Positions 7,381-29,134 of a DNA stretch of 36,654 nt are shown here, one piece after another; within the stretch, counting starts at the first letter, position 1; each line of letters starts with the position of its first letter. Both the position numbers and the translations under genes were made by a program. The DNA is from a virus (Duplodnaviria > Heunggongvirae > Uroviricota > Caudoviricetes). The stretch lies in IMG/VR virus record IMGVR_UViG_2778261064_000029; one strand, written 5' to 3'. The notes beneath the pieces are model-generated. The model saw nothing but the letters and a program-made list of their open reading frames with translations, was not told the DNA's origin and ran no database searches.

Positions 7381-8860
7381 TAATCACCTCAATACTGACA
7401 CCACCGGGAACAAACAACGGGTTGCTGATACCGTTCCTGCGGGCCAGCCGTTGCCAGTTCCGGCTGTTTCCTGTGTAACGGTACAGGGCCACCATTGCAG
7501 GCATCGTCTCCGGCAGGCGGTGCGTTTCACTGCCCGCCAGTTGCAGCCCGCGTTTTTCCAGGTCGGCAACAACCAGCAGACGCAGTTGCGTAAGCTGAAC
7601 GCTGTCTGTCGAAAAGCCCTGCTCAGATGCCGTCAGAATGACGGTATCCAGTGCAGCCCCCAGCATGGCGGCTGTTTTTCCGATATCGGACACACTTTCA
7701 AATACCGGGGGCGTGGCTGTACCACTGTCTGAAAAGGATACCTGTGAAAAGCCGCCGTCCGGGGTTATGGCAGTTAACTGTAACTGTCCCTGTGTGACGG
7801 TAGCAGATGTGCTGCTGGCCCCGCTGGCTGTGCCGGTTGTGGTGGACGGGGCATCCAGTACAGGTGCACGGGCGGCATTATCCATCCGGCGACTGAAATC
7901 CAGTGCCGCAGTCAGTGCCTGGCTGGCAGCTTCTGCCCGGTATGTCTGCGCCGCTGCCAGCATGACGTAGTTCAGTGTGGCAATATTTTTTTCTGCAACC
8001 GGACTGTTGTACGAGGTTGTGATTGTCCCCTGTCTGCCTGCGGTGGCGGCATGGCGACGTTCTAATCGCTGCGCCAGACGGTTCCATGTGGAAAATGCTG
8101 TCCGGGTATCGCATAACGATGAAACGCCGGACAGCGCCCCCATCAGCGAGGAGGCCAGCATGGCAGGCTGGTTAATCAGGCTGGTCACAGAGCCTTTCAT
8201 CGCAGAAAGCGATCCCATCAGACCGCTGACAGTCTGCGTAACCCCCAGATTGTCCACCGCATCACTGATATCATCGATGACACCGGTTACAGCTTCCATC
8301 ACGGCGGTTGCCGCCGCAGTGCCATCTTTTACGGTCTGCCAGACAGAGGACAGCGTATCTCCCAGAGAACCGGTTACAGCAACAGCCTGTGCCGGTACGG
8401 CTGCACTGGTGTCTGTTTCTGCGTCCGGGGCAGTATCCTGCAACGACGGATAAACGGTAACGGTGAACGCGTAATAATTCAGTTCATCCGCTTTAGTGCG
8501 GCATTCCCATGAATCCACCATGACGTCCACAGTGCCGAAATCAGGATGTACCAGCTCACCGCTGCCCGGAGCATCAAGAGCATCCATCAGCGCACCCGCT
8601 TCATCTCTGGCTGTTTCTGCGTTGCTGTTCAGAATGCAGGCGCTGAATGTACGGGAGCGAAGCTTTTTCCCCAGGTCATTGACGCCGCCGGTATCACGTA
8701 ACGGGTACTCACGTTTAACCAGGCGACGTCCGCCAGCCTGTTTTTGCTCCTCGATGACGAGAAACGGCACGTTACGGAACGTGCCTTTGCCGGTTGTTTT
8801 CCTGCCTCCACCGGTTTTATCCCGGACAGCATTAACGGCATTTAAAGCATCTTCAAACAT
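7373..8860 (-). CDS. N: DNA circularisation protein (Mu N-like)
   Basis: 495 aa; immediately downstream of tape measure gene; Ser/Thr/Ala-rich C-terminal half. Confidence 0.8.
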
Positions 8861-24661: not shown

Positions 24662-24688
24662 AAATAACCGGCAGGATGCCGGTTATTT
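24662..24688 (-). terminator. Perfect 12-bp-arm hairpin overlapping the C stop codon (middle-transcript terminator or P_lys-associated structure)
   Basis: aaataaccggca-gga-tgccggttattt. Confidence 0.35.
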
Positions 24689-25105
24689 TGGGCTTTCAGG
24701 TGAGAACAGATCAGGCTGATGACGTCGTGTATGCAGCTTTCTCTGGCGGGCAATAATCTGGTAGATCTGCGGCTGGGACAGGCGGTACTGGCGACGCAGT
24801 TCTTCCATGTTACGACCATTAAACTGGCAGTAAAGCAAATCGTCGCGTAACGCGGTCAGGATCGTATCGCCGCAGGGGATGTAAAACTGCCGTCCACCCA
24901 GAAAACAGGACAGGGCAACGGCCTGTTTACGGGCAAGTTCACGGGGATTGCTGACGTTCTGGCGTTTCAGTTCGTTTTCCAGAACATCAATCAGATCAAC
25001 CACCGAACGGGGCCAGCGTGATTCCAGTTCCGGGGCCGGGATGTTATCAATATGTCCGATTAACTGGCGAATTGCCGGATCGTGTTCAAATAAATCATGC
25101 TGCAT
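24683..25105 (-). CDS. C: Late transcription activator C (Mor/C family)
   Basis: 140 aa; paralogous to Mor in the window (LGGRQFYIPCGD vs LGGGQVYIPRGQ; FNGRNMEEL vs FNGRNVHEL). Confidence 0.9.
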   Translation of the reverse strand: MQHDLFEHDPAIRQLIGHIDNIPAPELESRWPRSVVDLIDVLENELKRQNVSNPRELARKQAVALSCFLGGRQFYIPCGDTILTALRDDLLYCQFNGRNMEELRRQYRLSQPQIYQIIARQRKLHTRRHQPDLFSPESPK

Positions 25106-25117
25106 ATTTTCCCCCGG

Positions 25118-25237
25118 TTAACAGACAGAAAGATACACCACGGCACTGATGGTTATCAGAACCACAAGGGCAATCACTTTTATCGCACTCATCAGCGTGG
25201 ACGGCCCGAAACATTCATCACTGAATTTTCTGTACAT
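25118..25237 (-). CDS. Candidate small membrane protein (39 aa), below the ORF-track cutoff
   Basis: MYRKFSDECFGPSTLMSAIKVIALVVLITISAVVYLSVC; single predicted TM helix; weak RBS; fills the gap upstream of C. Confidence 0.35.
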   Translation of the reverse strand: MYRKFSDECFGPSTLMSAIKVIALVVLITISAVVYLSVC

Positions 25238-25448
25238 GGTATTTTTCTCTGTAACGCCGGCAATGGTGGATAATTTCTGGCATATCAACGGACTGCCAGC
25301 CTTTCATGTAATAACTTCCGTGGGTGCCATCGTGCCCTGTGTAATCCATTGGCTTTGGTGGTGGGCCTCCGGCCTCCCGATGTAATACCTCCTGTCGTAA
25401 ACGTTCACGCCTGCCGAACTGAAAGGACGCATCCCACCCTTTACCCAT
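25218..25448 (-). CDS. Hypothetical protein, 76 aa (ATG 25448 preferred over track start 25502)
   Basis: ATG begins 3 nt after the stop of the upstream GH108-like gene (coupling). Confidence 0.5.
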   Translation of the reverse strand: MGKGWDASFQFGRRERLRQEVLHREAGGPPPKPMDYTGHDGTHGSYYMKGWQSVDMPEIIHHCRRYREKYHVQKIQ

Positions 25449-26001
25449 GCAGAACCTCCCGACAGGCGCTGGCGAGCAGATCCAGACGGTTAAACCAGCC
25501 ATTCAGATATTTCCCCTGCGAGGCACTGGATTTGATAATCCCTGCGTAATAGCGGGAACGACGCAGGAAGCACTGCAACAGCAGCCAGTCAGTATCGGCA
25601 CGCAGAACGGCTGCGCGTGTGTTTTTACCGACGATGCCATCATCATCAACACCTGCTGCCGCCTGGAGGATCTGAATCGCGCGTTTAACACCGTGCTGAA
25701 CGGCAGCATCAAAAACGAATAAGGAAACGCCATCAGGCCATTCGTTACACTTTGCCGCCAGCCAGTAATCACGCCAGTAGATCTGCGCCGCCTGCTCGCG
25801 GGTTAAATCCTTAATGCGGGTATCAGGTTTTCCGTCACCGTTAACATCGGTTTTGCCATCAATAACGCCGTCGCGACGGTCAGAAATACCGTATTTCGTT
25901 TCGCCGCCACGGTCGGCAGGATCATTAACATAGCCACCTTCAACATCAGGGCGTATAACGAAATTCAGCGAATGAAGGAATGCAGGGGAAAACTCAGGCA
26001 T
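25441..26001 (-). CDS. Peptidoglycan hydrolase candidate, GH108-type N-terminal motif plus peptidoglycan-binding-like C-terminal region
   Basis: EGGYVNDPADRGGETKYGIS motif near the N-terminus, then IYWRDYW; AGGAGG RBS 6 nt upstream; first gene after the early terminator. Confidence 0.75.
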   Translation of the reverse strand: MPEFSPAFLHSLNFVIRPDVEGGYVNDPADRGGETKYGISDRRDGVIDGKTDVNGDGKPDTRIKDLTREQAAQIYWRDYWLAAKCNEWPDGVSLFVFDAAVQHGVKRAIQILQAAAGVDDDGIVGKNTRAAVLRADTDWLLLQCFLRRSRYYAGIIKSSASQGKYLNGWFNRLDLLASACREVLHG

Positions 26002-26083: not shown

Positions 26084-26473
26084 TTAAAACAAAGGGGGGG
26101 AATACTGACGATACTTTATACGCCGCATTCGTCGGATGGCTTTATAGACTGTGTTAAATGTCACACCATGACGGATTGCCAGTTCGTGAACATTGCGACC
26201 GTTGAAATCATTCCAGATACGCAAATCCCGAATAAGCGAATCCAGAACCTGACCGCGTGGAATGTAGACCTGACCGCCGCCCAGATGCTTACAGATAGCC
26301 ACAACAATCTCCAGTGAATGGGCCGGGTCAACACCTAACCGGGACAATTCCCCGCGCAGTAAATCGTTCAGCTCCGCCAGCAGTGCCGGAAAGCGTGACG
26401 TATCCTCTGCGGGATTGTCAAGATGTGCCAGGATGGTGTCATCCTGCAAATCACCAAATAAATCTTCCGTCAT
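26084..26473 (-). CDS. mor: Middle operon regulator Mor (Mor/C family activator)
   Basis: 129 aa; paralog of C; ATGA overlap with gemA. Confidence 0.9.
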   Translation of the reverse strand: MTEDLFGDLQDDTILAHLDNPAEDTSRFPALLAELNDLLRGELSRLGVDPAHSLEIVVAICKHLGGGQVYIPRGQVLDSLIRDLRIWNDFNGRNVHELAIRHGVTFNTVYKAIRRMRRIKYRQYSPPLF

Positions 26474-27021
26474 TGTGCCATCCTCCGTGTCTTTCTGGCA
26501 CGGGCATAAGCCGCCGTCATGGCATCATAGCCGCGCAGTTCACGCCCGGACGGACTGACTGGCAACGGAAGCCCGTGACGGGAAAAGGCTTCACGAATAC
26601 AGCGGATATGCCACTGCTTGAGAGTTTCGAGAACAATCAACAGGGTGTCGCCATGACACCACGCCAGCGTGGAAACACCCTGTCTGCCATTACGTTTCGC
26701 CGTCAGGCGCTGAACATATTTATCCAGCGCCACATCACCGTCATCGGTAATAAAACCGTCTTCTGCCATCTGCTGCCAGACTTTGTATACCTTCTCGCGG
26801 GGCGTGACATGCCCCTTAAAGCGGCGACGTGGATGTTTATTCAGCTTCTTAAAGCCGCGTTCTTTCATGGCATCGAGCACCTGTTCCAGTTGCGTAACCG
26901 TCAGCTCGCGGCAACTGATTTTGCCCGTTTTCTGCATCAGAAAAGCGCGGTAAGTGTCGTCGTCGAGTTGTAGCTCCCGACGGGCGACATGGATTAATTT
27001 AATCAGGGATGTGCGATTCAT
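26470..27021 (-). CDS. gemA: GemA-like early protein
   Basis: 183 aa; position immediately upstream of mor; GGAGG RBS. Confidence 0.8.
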   Translation of the reverse strand: MNRTSLIKLIHVARRELQLDDDTYRAFLMQKTGKISCRELTVTQLEQVLDAMKERGFKKLNKHPRRRFKGHVTPREKVYKVWQQMAEDGFITDDGDVALDKYVQRLTAKRNGRQGVSTLAWCHGDTLLIVLETLKQWHIRCIREAFSRHGLPLPVSPSGRELRGYDAMTAAYARARKTRRMAQ

Positions 27022-27090
27022 GATCGTACCTCCGGAAAGAGGCGGTGCTGCAACACCGCCTGAATTTACACATCAATCAGAGAGGATTTT

Positions 27091-27357
27091 ATGGAAAATA
27101 ATGTACAACCTTATGATGTTGCAGGTTATGCGATTGCATCAGCACTGGTGCGCCTTCTGGTGAAGAAGGCGATCATCACCGCAGAAGAGGGCCAGGCCAT
27201 TTTCAGCTCTTCAGCAGAGATTTTAAAAGATGCGCCTGCAATAAGAACAAGCCGCCGCGAAAACATGCAACTGTCAAAGATCATGGAAGACATTATCAGT
27301 TCGTTATACCCAGATGCTGACGGATCTCAAAAGCCTCAAACACATGAGCGTCAGTAA
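27091..27357 (+). CDS. Candidate reverse-oriented ORF (88 aa) in the gap between the last accessory early gene and gemA
   Basis: ATG with AGAGAGGA 5 nt upstream; no minus-strand ORF fills 27022..27295; 3' end overlaps convergent gene 27296..27598 by 62 nt. Confidence 0.3.
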   Translation: MENNVQPYDVAGYAIASALVRLLVKKAIITAEEGQAIFSSSAEILKDAPAIRTSRRENMQLSKIMEDIISSLYPDADGSQKPQTHERQ

Positions 27358-27598
27358 CAATATCCTGGTCTGATAACCCCAGCCTGCGGCGGATGTACTC
27401 CTCGCGGGCTGTTTCATTTTGCAGTGCCACTACTGTTTCCAGACGATTCATTTCGCGGTTGATAATGTCACGGACTTCTCTGGCGGTGAGATTATGCTTA
27501 ATACCATATTCAACGATAGCGCGAACACGTTCCAGCATCCCTTTTTCAGCCATGACGTTATCAATATTAAGGGGAGTAAATTTATCTTCATTTTTCAT
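27296..27598 (-). CDS. Early accessory protein, unknown function (Mu gp15 position)
   Basis: 100 aa; ATGA overlap with upstream gene. Confidence 0.65.
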   Translation of the reverse strand: MKNEDKFTPLNIDNVMAEKGMLERVRAIVEYGIKHNLTAREVRDIINREMNRLETVVALQNETAREEYIRRRLGLSDQDIVTDAHVFEAFEIRQHLGITN

Positions 27599-27903
27599 TT
27601 TGCGGCCCTCAGAATAAATTCAGGATAAAATTTCAGACTCATTTGCCGTAACACATCCAGTGCAGCAACGGCTGCTGATTTATCGTTGCCATCAGCAATA
27701 GCGCGGAGATTTTCAATAATCCAGTGAGGACTCAGTGACTCAGCAATAATGCCAAACCGGTACGCCATGACCTCATCAATAGCTTTTTCATGAGACGGCT
27801 CATATACAAAATTCACAAAGTCATGCACTTCTTTTTTCGGCAAACCACCGGCAATCAGCAGGGCGGCAAGCTCTTCTGATTTTGAAAATACACCATTATT
27901 CAT
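27595..27903 (-). CDS. Early accessory protein, unknown function (ATG 27903 preferred over GTG 27918)
   Basis: About 102 aa; AAGGTGAG upstream. Confidence 0.6.
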   Translation of the reverse strand: MNNGVFSKSEELAALLIAGGLPKKEVHDFVNFVYEPSHEKAIDEVMAYRFGIIAESLSPHWIIENLRAIADGNDKSAAVAALDVLRQMSLKFYPEFILRAAK

Positions 27904-27904
27904 G

Positions 27905-28087
27905 TCACTCACCTTCACAATTCATGCACGCCGTGTCATCGCCCATATCGCAGTGGTTACATTTCTGCCCGCCACAATGAGGGCACTCTTTCAGATATTC
28001 AGGGGATTCATTACCGCAGGTCGGGCATTCCTGTTTCACCGTGGTAAATTTCCCCAGCCACGAATACGATGTTTCATTGTTTTCCAT
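27905..28087 (-). CDS. Small Cys-rich zinc-ribbon-like protein (8 Cys, 2 His in 60 aa)
   Basis: CPTCG...CPHCGG..CNHC...CMNC; GGAGG RBS 6 nt upstream. Confidence 0.6.
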   Translation of the reverse strand: MENNETSYSWLGKFTTVKQECPTCGNESPEYLKECPHCGGQKCNHCDMGDDTACMNCEGE

Positions 28088-28604
28088 TGTTTACCTCCGC
28101 CTGTTTTTGCGCCCGGATAAATTCGTCAGAAAGGATTTCAGTCATGCGGCCCTGTGCGGGAGTCATCCCTGTCATGACGTAAATCACATCACCAACACGG
28201 AACCACCGGAGCGGGCCGAATATTGTTGCGCTGAAATCCAGTCCCAGTGCGGGTAAGAGAGCGTCAGTACGGGCATAAGTGACCGGAATATTCTCCTGCC
28301 ATATTTTCGCCAGCTCTTTTGACTGCTCCCGCAGATGTGCAGGAATGCGCGATGTTCTTGGCCTGCAACTGTTACCTGATGCGGAGCGTTGTACAGTCCA
28401 CAACTCCGGCGAGAAAGGTCGCTCATTCCCCGGAAAATTCACGCCATGAAAATGACGCCCACCAATACCTGTGCTGAATACTGACCGGCAACCACAACCC
28501 AGAACCTTATCAAGATGGCGGGCTTCTTCGCGTAGTTTCAGGCAGTCCGCCATAAACTGGTCCCATGCCAGCAGTGCTGCGGGATTTGACGTTTTAAAAA
28601 ACAT
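28074..28604 (-). CDS. Early accessory protein, unknown function (ATG 28604 preferred; track start 28643)
   Basis: About 176 aa; 1-nt stop/start overlap with upstream gene. Confidence 0.6.
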   Translation of the reverse strand: MFFKTSNPAALLAWDQFMADCLKLREEARHLDKVLGCGCRSVFSTGIGGRHFHGVNFPGNERPFSPELWTVQRSASGNSCRPRTSRIPAHLREQSKELAKIWQENIPVTYARTDALLPALGLDFSATIFGPLRWFRVGDVIYVMTGMTPAQGRMTEILSDEFIRAQKQAEVNNGKQ

Positions 28605-29134
28605 CACGCCACCTCCTGCATCGTTGCGGGAGCCGGAGAACAATCAAGAATGAGATAACGCAGTACATGGTCGGTGATATTCCAGGCGCTTGAACTGCAA
28701 ATAAAACGCCCCAGCCGGATATCGATATAAGCCATCACAAAACGGGGCATTCCCTGTTCGCACATTTCGTCATCCACTTCCGCAACGATGTAAACCGACT
28801 CGCAGGTCAGTACGCCTGTTGCAAATTCTTTTGCCAGTGCCGGAATGGCATTGCCTTCCAGCCAGGGCAATGAGCGGCGGAAGGAACACCACGCGGCATC
28901 ATCAACAGCAGGCTGCTCAGTTGCGTTTCGTCTTACAGGCGGCGTCGGACGCGGGCGCGGAACGTCATAAAATCCGTTGCATTCGGTGAGCACTCCGGCA
29001 TCAACCGCATCACGCAGGAAATACACCATTGACGAGGGCAGCATATTCATTTTTTCAGCCAGAACTCCGCAGGTCAGGCGTCCGTAAGCCCGTAATAATG
29101 TGCTGACACCATTCAGAATTTTTGCATCAACCAT
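28604..29134 (-). CDS. Early accessory protein, unknown function; N-terminal region resembles a winged-helix fold
   Basis: 176 aa; GAGGAA RBS. Confidence 0.6.
   Translation of the reverse strand: MVDAKILNGVSTLLRAYGRLTCGVLAEKMNMLPSSMVYFLRDAVDAGVLTECNGFYDVPRPRPTPPVRRNATEQPAVDDAAWCSFRRSLPWLEGNAIPALAKEFATGVLTCESVYIVAEVDDEMCEQGMPRFVMAYIDIRLGRFICSSSAWNITDHVLRYLILDCSPAPATMQEVA

What the first reader, a model, noticed from the sequence alone, without database searches (positions are those of the whole stretch)
27022..27357. Reverse-oriented 88-codon ORF and hairpin in the only long gap of the early operon
Between gene 27296..27598 and gemA (start 27021) the minus strand has 274 bp with no plausible ORF (all three frames checked; the best is a 54-codon frame with no RBS). 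The plus strand carries an 88-aa ORF (27091..27357) with an AGAGAGGA RBS 5 nt before ATG and helix-like composition. An 8-bp-stem hairpin (27041..27062, aggcggtg-ctgcaa-caccgcct) sits between the gemA RBS and this ORF. A gene antisense to the early transcript would be atypical for Mu-like phages and could be a moron such as an exclusion, anti-defence or antisense-regulatory element. I found no convincing sigma70 promoter.
Basis: inference. Interest (0 to 1): 0.55.

Follow-up and report, generated by a model that had tools for sequence, protein, structure and literature searches.

The report
Phage Mu gp15, a reverse-oriented gene
The plus-strand 88-codon ORF is the already catalogued but uncharacterised gene 15 of phage Mu, a real, dispensable small gene that points against the early operon and has its own terminator, while the nearby hairpin belongs to the neighbouring gene gemA.

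Summary
The ORF is at 27091..27357 (+) and its AGAGAGGA ribosome-binding site is at 27079-27086. The gap is 274 bp. The GC-rich hairpin is real but sits at 27040-27061, one base off.

The window is a Muvirus genome, and the ORF is Mu gp15 (RefSeq Mup15, SfMu gp16, PHROG 8747), so it is not new.

Five divergent alleles occupy the same slot in the same orientation in E. coli, Shigella and Salmonella Mu-like phages. All keep an open plus-strand frame, a ribosome-binding site and a downstream plus-strand terminator hairpin with a T tail (window 27380-27421, inside gene 14).

The competing minus-strand 55-codon ORF is annotated as Mu_54 in the revised Mu GenBank record. It shares third codon positions with gp15 and is broken in three alleles, so I read it as a shadow frame.

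The first hairpin has compensatory changes and persists in phages that lack gp15. It therefore belongs to the gemA leader, where the Mu record annotates a semi-early promoter.

gp15 is missing from viable phages through a clean 223-bp deletion. The protein is a small acidic helical bundle with no informative homologue. I found no promoter. Its function is inferred only.

The parts
27091..27357 (+). gp15 ORF (88 aa, 9.7 kDa, pI 5.3). Codons 1-68 are the conserved helical part. Codons 69-88 are a variable tail overlapping the 3' end of gene 14.
   Evidence: ORF list. Equals Mup15/NP_050619 and SfMu gp16. PHROG 8747, full length, E 2e-59. Intact in three clades at 45-50% aa identity. Codon-position differences 24/18/39 and dN/dS 0.2-0.36. 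AlphaFold gives helices 8-25, 31-45, 49-53 and 61-72, mean pLDDT 68.
27079..27086 (+). Shine-Dalgarno sequence of gp15 (AGAGAGGA), 4 nt before the ATG
   Evidence: An SD-like purine run lies 4-9 nt before the ATG in all five alleles: GAGGA, GAAGG, AAGGA, AAGGAG.
27380..27421 (+). Predicted intrinsic terminator of the gp15 transcript. Stem-loop 27380-27411 plus tail TTTCATTTTG 27412-27421, embedded antisense in the coding sequence of gene 14.
   Evidence: dG -21.3 kcal/mol, z -3.1 on the plus strand. There is no T tail on the minus strand. A hairpin with a T tail is present downstream of the ORF in all five alleles. 98% of cells pair, 3 pairs change on both sides, and G-U pairs exist only in the plus-strand RNA. 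It coincides with a TransTermHP feature in AF083977.
27040..27061 (-). Conserved GC-rich stem-loop in the gemA leader (core GGCGGTG-N6-CACCGCC), 6 nt upstream of the gemA Shine-Dalgarno and followed by a short T-rich run on the minus strand. It is not specific to gp15.
   Evidence: Present in all alleles, including five loci that lack gp15 (L007, L019, L038, L039, L040). 3 of 8 pairs show compensatory double changes and 4 never vary. It lies inside the stretch annotated as the semi-early promoter in Mu.
27037..27102 (-). Window equivalent of the 'semi-early promoter' annotated for the gemA-mor (gem) operon in Mu (AF083977 8151-8217). It overlaps the hairpin and the gp15 start.
   Evidence: Coordinates transferred from the annotation, whose source is PMID 9454718 (I could not read it). 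Only weak -10-like matches here, for example TAAATT at 27064-27069. No consensus promoter.
27126..27293 (-). 55-codon minus-strand ORF (= Mu_54 of the revised Mu record). I judge it to be the shadow frame of gp15.
   Evidence: Its third codon positions coincide with those of gp15 (derived from the coordinates). Length is 55 vs 62 codons in clades 1 and 2. It has no ATG and an internal stop in the Salmonella clade, and stops in the D108 and L041 alleles. BLOSUM scores are lower than for the plus frame in every inter-clade comparison.
27076..27298 (.). 223-bp segment cleanly absent from natural relatives, flanked by the 4-nt direct repeat ATCA. Its loss removes gp15 codons 1-69, the Shine-Dalgarno sequence and a few leader bases, but keeps the hairpin, the gene 14 stop codon and the terminator.
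   Evidence: Yersinia phage vB_YpM_3 = L007; E. coli prophage L019.
27296..27598 (-). Gene 14 homologue (100 aa) of the early operon. Its last 62 nt overlap gp15, and its codons for ...NETAREEYIRRRLG... carry the gp15 terminator.
   Evidence: (PHROG 6075).
26470..27021 (-). gemA (183 aa), divergent neighbour of gp15. Its Shine-Dalgarno GGAGG is at 27033-27029.
   Evidence: Pfam GemA E 3e-30.

Best explanation
The plus-strand ORF is gene 15 of Mu-type phages. It is a genuine, non-essential protein-coding cassette inserted in reverse orientation between early gene 14 and gemA.

Shown by comparison:
- The cassette consists of a ribosome-binding site, an 86-119 codon ORF and its own plus-strand intrinsic terminator hidden inside the end of gene 14.
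- It exists as at least five divergent alleles and is cleanly missing from some viable phages.
- The product is a small, acidic, soluble protein whose best-modelled part is an N-terminal helical hairpin.
- The hairpin at 27040-27061 is a separate, conserved element of the gemA leader.

Inferred:
- There is no room for a promoter between that hairpin and the gp15 ribosome-binding site. The gp15 transcript must therefore start at or inside the 5' end of gemA and read through the hairpin, so its leader is antisense to the gemA leader.
- Transcription from the strong early promoter runs head-on into the cassette. gp15 is therefore most likely made when the early promoter is repressed, that is, in the lysogen, in the same direction as the repressor gene.
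- There it would act as an accessory protein that binds a host or phage partner. Its transcription could additionally dampen leaky read-through into gemA-mor.
For: Identity:
- The window is 99.8% identical to Yersinia phage vB_YpM_5, 99.3% to SfMu and 96% to Mu.
- The ORF is annotated as a reverse-strand CDS in NC_000929 (Mup15), SfMu, vB_YpM_5 and by PGAP in E. coli. It matches PHROG 8747 at E 2e-59.

Coding on the plus strand:
- Three clades (Mu type; E. coli STEC388 type; Salmonella type) keep 86-88 codons with no indel at about 60% nucleotide identity.
- Third-position differences are in excess (24/18/39, 28/21/36, 19/20/42) and dN/dS is 0.20-0.36.
- BLOSUM scores are 157-178 for the plus frame against 104-138 for the shadow frame.
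- The shadow frame has stops or lacks a start in three alleles.
- D108 and the E. coli locus L041 carry a different plus-strand ORF in the same slot (119 and 89 aa, homologous to each other). That ORF and gp15 hit the same region of PHROG 32893 (E 5e-7, 1e-7, 2e-4).

Own terminator:
-. Pairing is kept through double changes and G-U pairs that work only in plus-strand RNA, and the T tail is on the plus strand only.

Dispensable:
- A 223-bp deletion in plaque-forming vB_YpM_3 and in an E. coli prophage, plus other gp15-less arrangements.

Hairpin independent of gp15:
-.

Protein:
- (helices; residues 11-40 at pLDDT 83-92).
- (pI 5.3, no transmembrane-grade hydrophobic stretch).
Against: - No promoter for the plus strand was found by the consensus scan or by my position-weight scan. 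The best candidates inside gemA are weak and not shared by all alleles.
- Synonymous variation at the 5' end of gemA is only slightly low (0.20 against 0.22-0.50 elsewhere).
- There are no expression data of any kind.
- dN/dS alone cannot separate the plus frame from its shadow, because their third positions coincide. One pair gives 0.202 against 0.199.
- Curators of the revised Mu record chose the minus-strand ORF instead.
- The family is tiny and confined to Enterobacteriaceae Mu-type prophages, so the evolutionary sample is small.
- GC content equals that of the neighbouring early genes, so there is no compositional sign of foreign origin.
- The lysogen-expression and partner-binding steps are pure inference.
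Confidence: 0.72

Rival explanations
1. The real gene is the sense-strand 55-codon ORF (Mu_54, 27126..27293), translationally coupled to gene 14. The 88-codon plus-strand ORF is its antisense shadow.
For: It is annotated this way in the revised AF083977 record. It lies on the same strand as the whole early operon, so it needs no extra promoter. Its ATG sits 2 nt after the gene 14 stop in clade 1 and overlaps that stop (TGATG) in clade 2. Its dN/dS is also below 1 (0.20-0.50).
Against: The frame has no ATG and an internal stop in the Salmonella clade, and stops in the D108 and L041 alleles, whereas the plus frame is open in all. Its length is not conserved (55 vs 62 codons). Its aligned-residue scores are lower than those of the plus frame in all inter-clade pairs. 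It has no PHROG or Pfam match. It would not explain the conserved plus-strand ribosome-binding site and terminator.
Confidence: 0.07
2. The segment is mainly regulatory, not protein-coding in function. A plus-strand transcript that starts in gemA and stops at 27412-27421 acts as an antisense RNA or a transcriptional roadblock. It limits early-promoter read-through and translation of gemA-mor, as a safety lock on the lytic cascade. The encoded peptide is secondary.
For: The geometry forces the plus-strand leader to be complementary to the gemA leader hairpin, and probably to its Shine-Dalgarno sequence. The terminator is conserved as RNA structure. The cassette sits immediately upstream of gemA-mor, and mor overlaps the end of gemA. 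The Mu record places a gemA promoter face to face with it. Face-to-face promoters interfering with each other are established in coliphage 186 (my own knowledge, not checked here).
Against: The ORF shows purifying selection at the protein level and a conserved length, start and ribosome-binding site in alleles whose nucleotide sequences have drifted to about 60% identity. A pure antisense RNA would not need these. The D108-type alleles have unrelated nucleotide sequence in the body yet keep a homologous protein. Phages lacking the ORF body are viable.
Confidence: 0.15
3. Nothing functional is encoded. The gap is just spacer plus the gemA promoter and leader, and both ORFs are chance open frames kept by linkage.
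For: There is no promoter for the plus strand, no functional homologue, and the segment is dispensable in nature.
Against: Third-position excess of substitutions and no indels over 204 nt at about 60% identity. Five alleles all have an open plus frame, a ribosome-binding site and a terminator. Remote homology links alleles through PHROG 32893.
Confidence: 0.04

Closest known systems
Phage Mu gene 15 (Mup15, NP_050619; SfMu gp16 YP_009152202; PHROG 8747)
   Same: Same gene: 94-99% amino-acid identity, same 88 codons, and the same position and reverse orientation between gene 14 and gemA.
   Different: The window copy has Tyr73 where every other copy has Asp. No function has been published that I could find. 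The revised Mu GenBank record no longer lists the gene.
Morons of temperate phages (for example the HK97 gp15 superinfection-exclusion moron; concept known to me from the literature, cited in PMC9936078's reference list)
   Same: A small accessory ORF with its own terminator, variably present among close relatives and not required for plaque formation.
   Different: No promoter was identified. Base composition is not distinct from the neighbours. There is no transmembrane segment such as many exclusion proteins have. Expression from the prophage is untested.
Repressor-strand genes that overlap early genes on the opposite strand in the transposable Pseudomonas phage Fc02 (PMC9936078)
   Same: A transposable phage with small genes on the repressor strand that overlap an early-operon gene on the other strand. 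In Fc02 they are transcribed in the lysogen and one mediates exclusion (abstract).
   Different: The Fc02 genes lie next to the repressor at the genome end and share no sequence similarity with gp15. gp15 lies about 7 kb away from the repressor gene, in front of gemA, and its expression and function are unknown.
Face-to-face promoter pairs with transcriptional interference (coliphage 186 pR/pL; my own knowledge, not checked here)
   Same: If the annotated gemA semi-early promoter and a gp15 promoter inside gemA both exist, they would fire toward each other across about 60-100 bp containing a shared hairpin.
   Different: Neither promoter is defined in this sequence. Interference is not demonstrated.

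Membership tests
Mu gp15 family (PHROG 8747) | Full-length sequence similarity to the family profile | tested here: met
   E 2.2e-59, residues 1-88 on profile 1-88. 94-98% identity to the Mu, SfMu and E. coli copies.
Mu gp15 family (PHROG 8747) | Synteny: between the gene 14 homologue and gemA, on the strand opposite to the early operon, overlapping the gene 14 3' end | tested here: met
Moron (autonomous accessory transcription unit in a prophage) | Present in some and absent from other closely related phages | tested here: met
   Deleted in vB_YpM_3, L019, L038, L039 and L040. Replaced by other alleles in D108 and L041.
Moron (autonomous accessory transcription unit in a prophage) | Own transcription terminator | tested here: met
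   Plus-strand hairpin with a T tail 23 nt after the stop, conserved with compensatory changes in five alleles. This is a prediction, not an assay.
Moron (autonomous accessory transcription unit in a prophage) | Own promoter | tested here: inconclusive
   No sigma-70 consensus match. Only weak, non-universal candidates inside gemA. Synonymous-site conservation there is not clearly elevated.
Moron (autonomous accessory transcription unit in a prophage) | Expressed from the repressed prophage | not testable with these tools
   Needs strand-specific RNA or protein data from a lysogen.
Moron (autonomous accessory transcription unit in a prophage) | Base composition different from the flanking phage genes | tested here: not met
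   45.9% GC against 44.9% and 43.5% for the adjacent early genes.
Rho-independent terminator (element at 27380-27421, plus strand) | GC-rich stem-loop immediately followed by a U-rich tail on the transcribed strand | tested here: met
   13-bp stem, dG -21.3, tail UUUCAUUUUG. Same architecture in all alleles.
Rho-independent terminator (hairpin at 27040-27061) | GC-rich stem-loop immediately followed by a U-rich tail | tested here: inconclusive
   The stem is strong (dG -16). The minus-strand tail has only 3-5 U interrupted by C (CTCTTTCC; other alleles CCCCCTTTT, CTCTTTTTC, TTTTTAAA). It was not picked up by the terminator scan. mor lies downstream and must be expressed, so at most it is a partial terminator or a leader or stability element.
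Type I toxin-antitoxin or small hydrophobic toxin with antisense RNA | Short hydrophobic, membrane-inserting peptide | tested here: not met
   GRAVY -0.35 and a maximum 19-residue Kyte-Doolittle mean of 1.45, interrupted by charged residues.
Known anti-phage defence proteins (PADLOC) | Match to a defence-system profile | tested here: not met
   0 families for four alleles at E <= 0.1.

The most novel reading that the evidence does not exclude
The gp15 unit is a dual-function element. Its mRNA must begin inside or at the start of gemA, so it carries a leader complementary to the gemA leader hairpin and ribosome-binding region. In the lysogen it therefore acts both as an antisense or head-on transcriptional lock on gemA-mor, the gateway to the middle and late lytic cascade, and as the messenger for a small helical effector protein. 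Induction of the early promoter overruns and silences it.
Probability: 0.15. Interest if true: 0.6.

Novelty: already known. Interest (0 to 1): 0.3.

Why it matters
Mu is a paradigm phage, yet its two reference annotations disagree about this locus. RefSeq lists gp15 on the reverse strand. The revised GenBank record lists a sense-strand ORF (Mu_54) instead.

The comparison made here favours gp15 and adds three points:
- gp15 has a conserved private terminator written into the coding sequence of gene 14.
- D108 carries an unannotated divergent allele.
- The adjacent hairpin is a covarying element of the gemA leader.

If gp15 proves to be expressed in lysogens, it would be a second repressor-strand gene in Mu. 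It sits directly in front of the gemA-mor regulatory genes, which is relevant to how leaky lytic expression is prevented and to what Mu prophages contribute to their hosts. As it stands, it is a small annotation-level clarification of a known hypothetical gene, not a discovery of a new kind of element.

Tried and rejected
Function by homology gave nothing useful:
- Pfam, NCBIfam and PADLOC gave no hits.
- A profile search against PDB sequences gave only non-significant hits. The best was the T4 MotA N-terminal domain at E 0.29.
- Foldseek against viral and PDB libraries gave only Mu's own old ORF 'F-134'.

Wider family searches found little:
- phmmer over 1.84 billion representatives gave 5 real relatives and one repetitive false positive, P0007.
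- A profile search gave 11 clusters, all E. coli or Salmonella 'hypothetical protein'.
- A first scan of one-genome-per-species contigs found none.
- Distant GemA loci in other genera have no gap, hairpin or reverse ORF.

RNA families: no credible Rfam match in 26800-27700.

Promoters: two consensus scans, my own weight-matrix scan and a synonymous-site test in gemA gave no convincing plus-strand promoter.

Literature:
- The paper behind the 'semi-early promoter' annotation (PMID 9454718) is not held.
- The SfMu and Mu-lysis papers do not discuss this gene.
- A search for Mup15 returned only mouse genes.

Ideas rejected:
- Type I toxin or membrane exclusion protein, because there is no hydrophobic segment.
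- The hairpin as part of the gp15 cassette or as its promoter-proximal terminator, because it persists without gp15.
- A special nucleotide-level constraint on the 20-nt block 27106-27125, which is identical between clades 1 and 2 but not conserved in the Salmonella clade.

Full report
**What is there.** The window is a complete Mu-type phage genome in reverse orientation. Transposase A and B, gam, gemA and mor are on the minus strand, and the repressor-like ORF is on the plus strand near 34.7 kb. The 1.6 kb around the finding is 99.8% identical to Yersinia phage vB_YpM_5, 99.3% to Shigella phage SfMu and 96% to Mu.
- gemA starts at 27021 and the upstream early gene (Mu gene 14 homologue) ends at 27296, so the gap is 274 bp.
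- The plus strand carries an 88-codon ORF at 27091..27357, preceded by AGAGAGGA at 27079-27086.
- The hairpin is at 27040-27061, one base off. It is strong: dG about -16 kcal/mol, z about -4.3, with none of 200 shuffles as stable.

**It is a known annotated gene.** The ORF is gene 15 of Mu.
- RefSeq NC_000929 lists it as Mup15/gp15 on the reverse strand. SfMu lists it as gp16, vB_YpM_5 as a hypothetical protein, and PGAP calls it in E. coli prophages.
- It matches PHROG 8747 over its full length (E 2e-59).
- The revised GenBank record of Mu (AF083977) dropped it. In its place that record annotates a 55-codon ORF on the early-operon strand (Mu_54, equal to window 27126..27293).
- The same record annotates a 'semi-early promoter' (PMID 9454718) directly upstream of the gemA ribosome-binding site. 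This corresponds to window 27037-27102 and covers the hairpin and the gp15 start. I could not obtain that paper. Other papers cite a gem operon that is expressed constitutively in lysogens (reference lists seen).
- The gap is therefore not functionally empty on the minus strand, and two reference annotations conflict about which strand codes.

**Which strand codes.** Relatives at useful distances exist.
- A second E. coli clade (STEC388 type, 27 complete genomes) is 71% identical over the 411-nt region.
- A Salmonella clade is found in more divergent Mu-like prophages with a different lysozyme.
- All three clades keep an 86-88 codon plus-strand ORF with no indel, at 45-50% amino-acid identity.
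- Over codons 1-68, the part that does not overlap gene 14, nucleotide identity is only about 60%. Differences pile up at plus-frame third positions (24/18/39, 28/21/36, 19/20/42), with dN/dS of 0.20-0.36.

The third positions of the minus-strand 55-codon frame coincide with those of gp15. This is the classic shadow-frame relationship, so dN/dS alone cannot separate the two frames. Other evidence does:
- The shadow frame changes length (55 vs 62 codons).
- It has no ATG and an internal stop in the Salmonella clade, and it is interrupted in the D108 and L041 alleles.
- Aligned-residue BLOSUM scores are consistently higher for the plus frame, 157-178 against 104-138.
- The plus frame is intact in all 35 fetched loci that carry one of the three gp15-type clades; some of these duplicate the same contigs.

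**More alleles in the same slot.**
- Phage D108, whose record leaves 376 bp unannotated here, carries a 119-codon plus-strand ORF (locus L003 2190..2549). It starts 30 nt after the same hairpin, has an AAGGA ribosome-binding site, and overlaps the end of its gene 14.
- An E. coli prophage (L041) carries an 89-codon relative of it.
- The D108 ORF is PHROG 38610. The D108 ORF and both tested gp15 clades match the same part of PHROG 32893 (E 5e-7, 1e-7, 2e-4). The shared motif is G-(Y/F)-x-(I/L/V)-x-(S/G)-x-L-x(2)-L-(V/I)-x(2)-(G/A)-x-I.
- The slot therefore holds at least five divergent alleles of one small protein family, always in reverse orientation.
- The family is confined to Mu-type prophages of E. 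coli, Shigella and Salmonella. Distant GemA-encoding prophages have no such gap.

**A private terminator.** Twenty-three nucleotides after the gp15 stop, the plus strand folds into a 13-bp stem-loop (27380-27411, dG -21.3, z -3.1) followed by TTTCATTTTG. The minus strand has no T tail.
- The same architecture follows the ORF in all five alleles, although it lies inside the coding sequence of gene 14, whose protein sequence differs greatly between alleles.
- On a five-allele alignment, 98% of cells pair and three pairs change on both sides. Several pairs are G-U, which would be A-C mismatches in minus-strand RNA.
- This is the strongest indirect evidence that the plus strand is transcribed across gp15 and terminated there. 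It coincides with a TransTermHP feature in the Mu record.

**The first hairpin is not part of the cassette.**
- Its core, GGCGGTG-N6-CACCGCC, is present 6 nt upstream of the gemA Shine-Dalgarno in every allele. That includes five loci without gp15: vB_YpM_3, L019, L038, L039 and L040.
- Three of its eight pairs show compensatory double changes and the loop varies freely.
- On the minus strand it is followed by a short, C-interrupted T run. This is too weak for the terminator scan, and mor lies downstream and must be expressed.
- I read it as a gemA-leader element. It could be a partial terminator or attenuator at the end of the semi-essential early region, or a 5' stem-loop of the semi-early transcript. 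The tools cannot decide between these.

**Dispensability.**
- vB_YpM_3, a plaque-forming phage, and an E. coli prophage lack exactly window 27076-27298. This 223-bp segment lies between ATCA repeats. Its loss removes the gp15 Shine-Dalgarno sequence and codons 1-69, but keeps the hairpin, the gene 14 stop and the terminator.
- Other prophages have larger deletions or other genes abutting gemA.

**The protein.** It is 9.7 kDa with pI 5.3 and no transmembrane-grade segment.
- AlphaFold, using a ten-sequence alignment, gives a helical hairpin at residues 8-45. Residues 11-40 have pLDDT 83-92. Two weaker helices and a disordered tail follow, and mean pLDDT is 68.
- No library gave a functional hint. 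The searches and their outcomes are listed under "tried and rejected".

**Mechanism.**
- Shown by comparison: a ribosome-binding site, ORF and terminator cassette under purifying selection, optional, in reverse orientation.
- Inferred from geometry: only about 17 nt separate the hairpin from the gp15 ribosome-binding site. The promoter must therefore lie upstream of the hairpin, in or at the start of gemA. The gp15 leader then contains the hairpin and is antisense to the gemA leader.
- Not found: no convincing promoter appeared there.
- Inferred from knowledge of Mu regulation: early-promoter transcription runs head-on through the cassette. gp15 is therefore most plausibly made when the early promoter is repressed, that is, in the lysogen. 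Like other optional prophage genes, it would act by binding some host or phage partner.
- Possible extra role: its transcription may also dampen read-through into gemA-mor.
- These last steps are hypotheses.

**Verdict.** The added value is modest:
- evidence that gp15, rather than Mu_54, is the coding frame;
- a conserved embedded terminator;
- an unannotated D108 allele;
- reassignment of the hairpin to gemA.

Interest is low to moderate.

Noticed in passing
window 27126-27293 (minus) vs 27091-27357 (plus); AF083977 7960-8127 vs NC_000929 7896-8162: The two reference annotations of phage Mu disagree. RefSeq keeps reverse-strand gp15, while the revised GenBank record replaces it with sense-strand Mu_54. 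Comparative evidence here favours gp15.
   Followed up: yes
L003 2190-2549 (= GQ357916.1 complement 7853-8212): Phage D108 has an unannotated 119-codon reverse-strand ORF (PHROG 38610) in the 376-bp gap between its gene 14 and gemA. It is a remote relative of Mu gp15 and has its own downstream terminator-like hairpin.
   Followed up: yes
window 25441-26001 (minus): A 186-aa GH108-type muramidase gene sits directly downstream of mor. It lies ahead of the gp19-like ORF (25218-25448) and the C gene (24683-25105, 99% identical to SfMu C). Mu and SfMu have the middle promoter and gp18 at this position. E. coli prophage L039 shares the arrangement at 98% identity.
   Followed up: partly
window 27595-27918 (minus): A 107-aa early gene (PHROG 1988) is present here, in SfMu and in vB_YpM_5, but absent from Mu. 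This is another presence/absence difference in the semi-essential early region and accounts for the 82% query coverage of Mu.
   Followed up: partly
window 28074-28643 (minus): A 189-codon ORF with a TTG start fills a stretch that appears to match one left unannotated in the SfMu RefSeq record (about 500 bp between its gp12 and gp13). I did not map this precisely and did not examine whether it is a real gene.
   Followed up: no
window 27311 (codon 73 of gp15): The window copy has TAC (Tyr) where all other clade-1 and clade-2 copies have GAC (Asp). The same base change is a conservative Ile/Leu difference in the overlapping gene 14 frame.
   Followed up: partly
L038 1353-1460 (E. coli MB06231 prophage): An independent deletion joins gp15 codon 5 to sequence further up the early region and removes gene 14 as well. 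The gemA hairpin is kept.
   Followed up: partly
L044 about 1470-1500 (Desulfovibrio sp. Mu-like prophage): A short GC-rich inverted repeat (GGCGGACTCGCCGCC) followed by GTTTCATAGGAGG lies just upstream of a distant gemA homologue. It loosely resembles the enterobacterial gemA-leader hairpin but may be coincidence.
   Followed up: no
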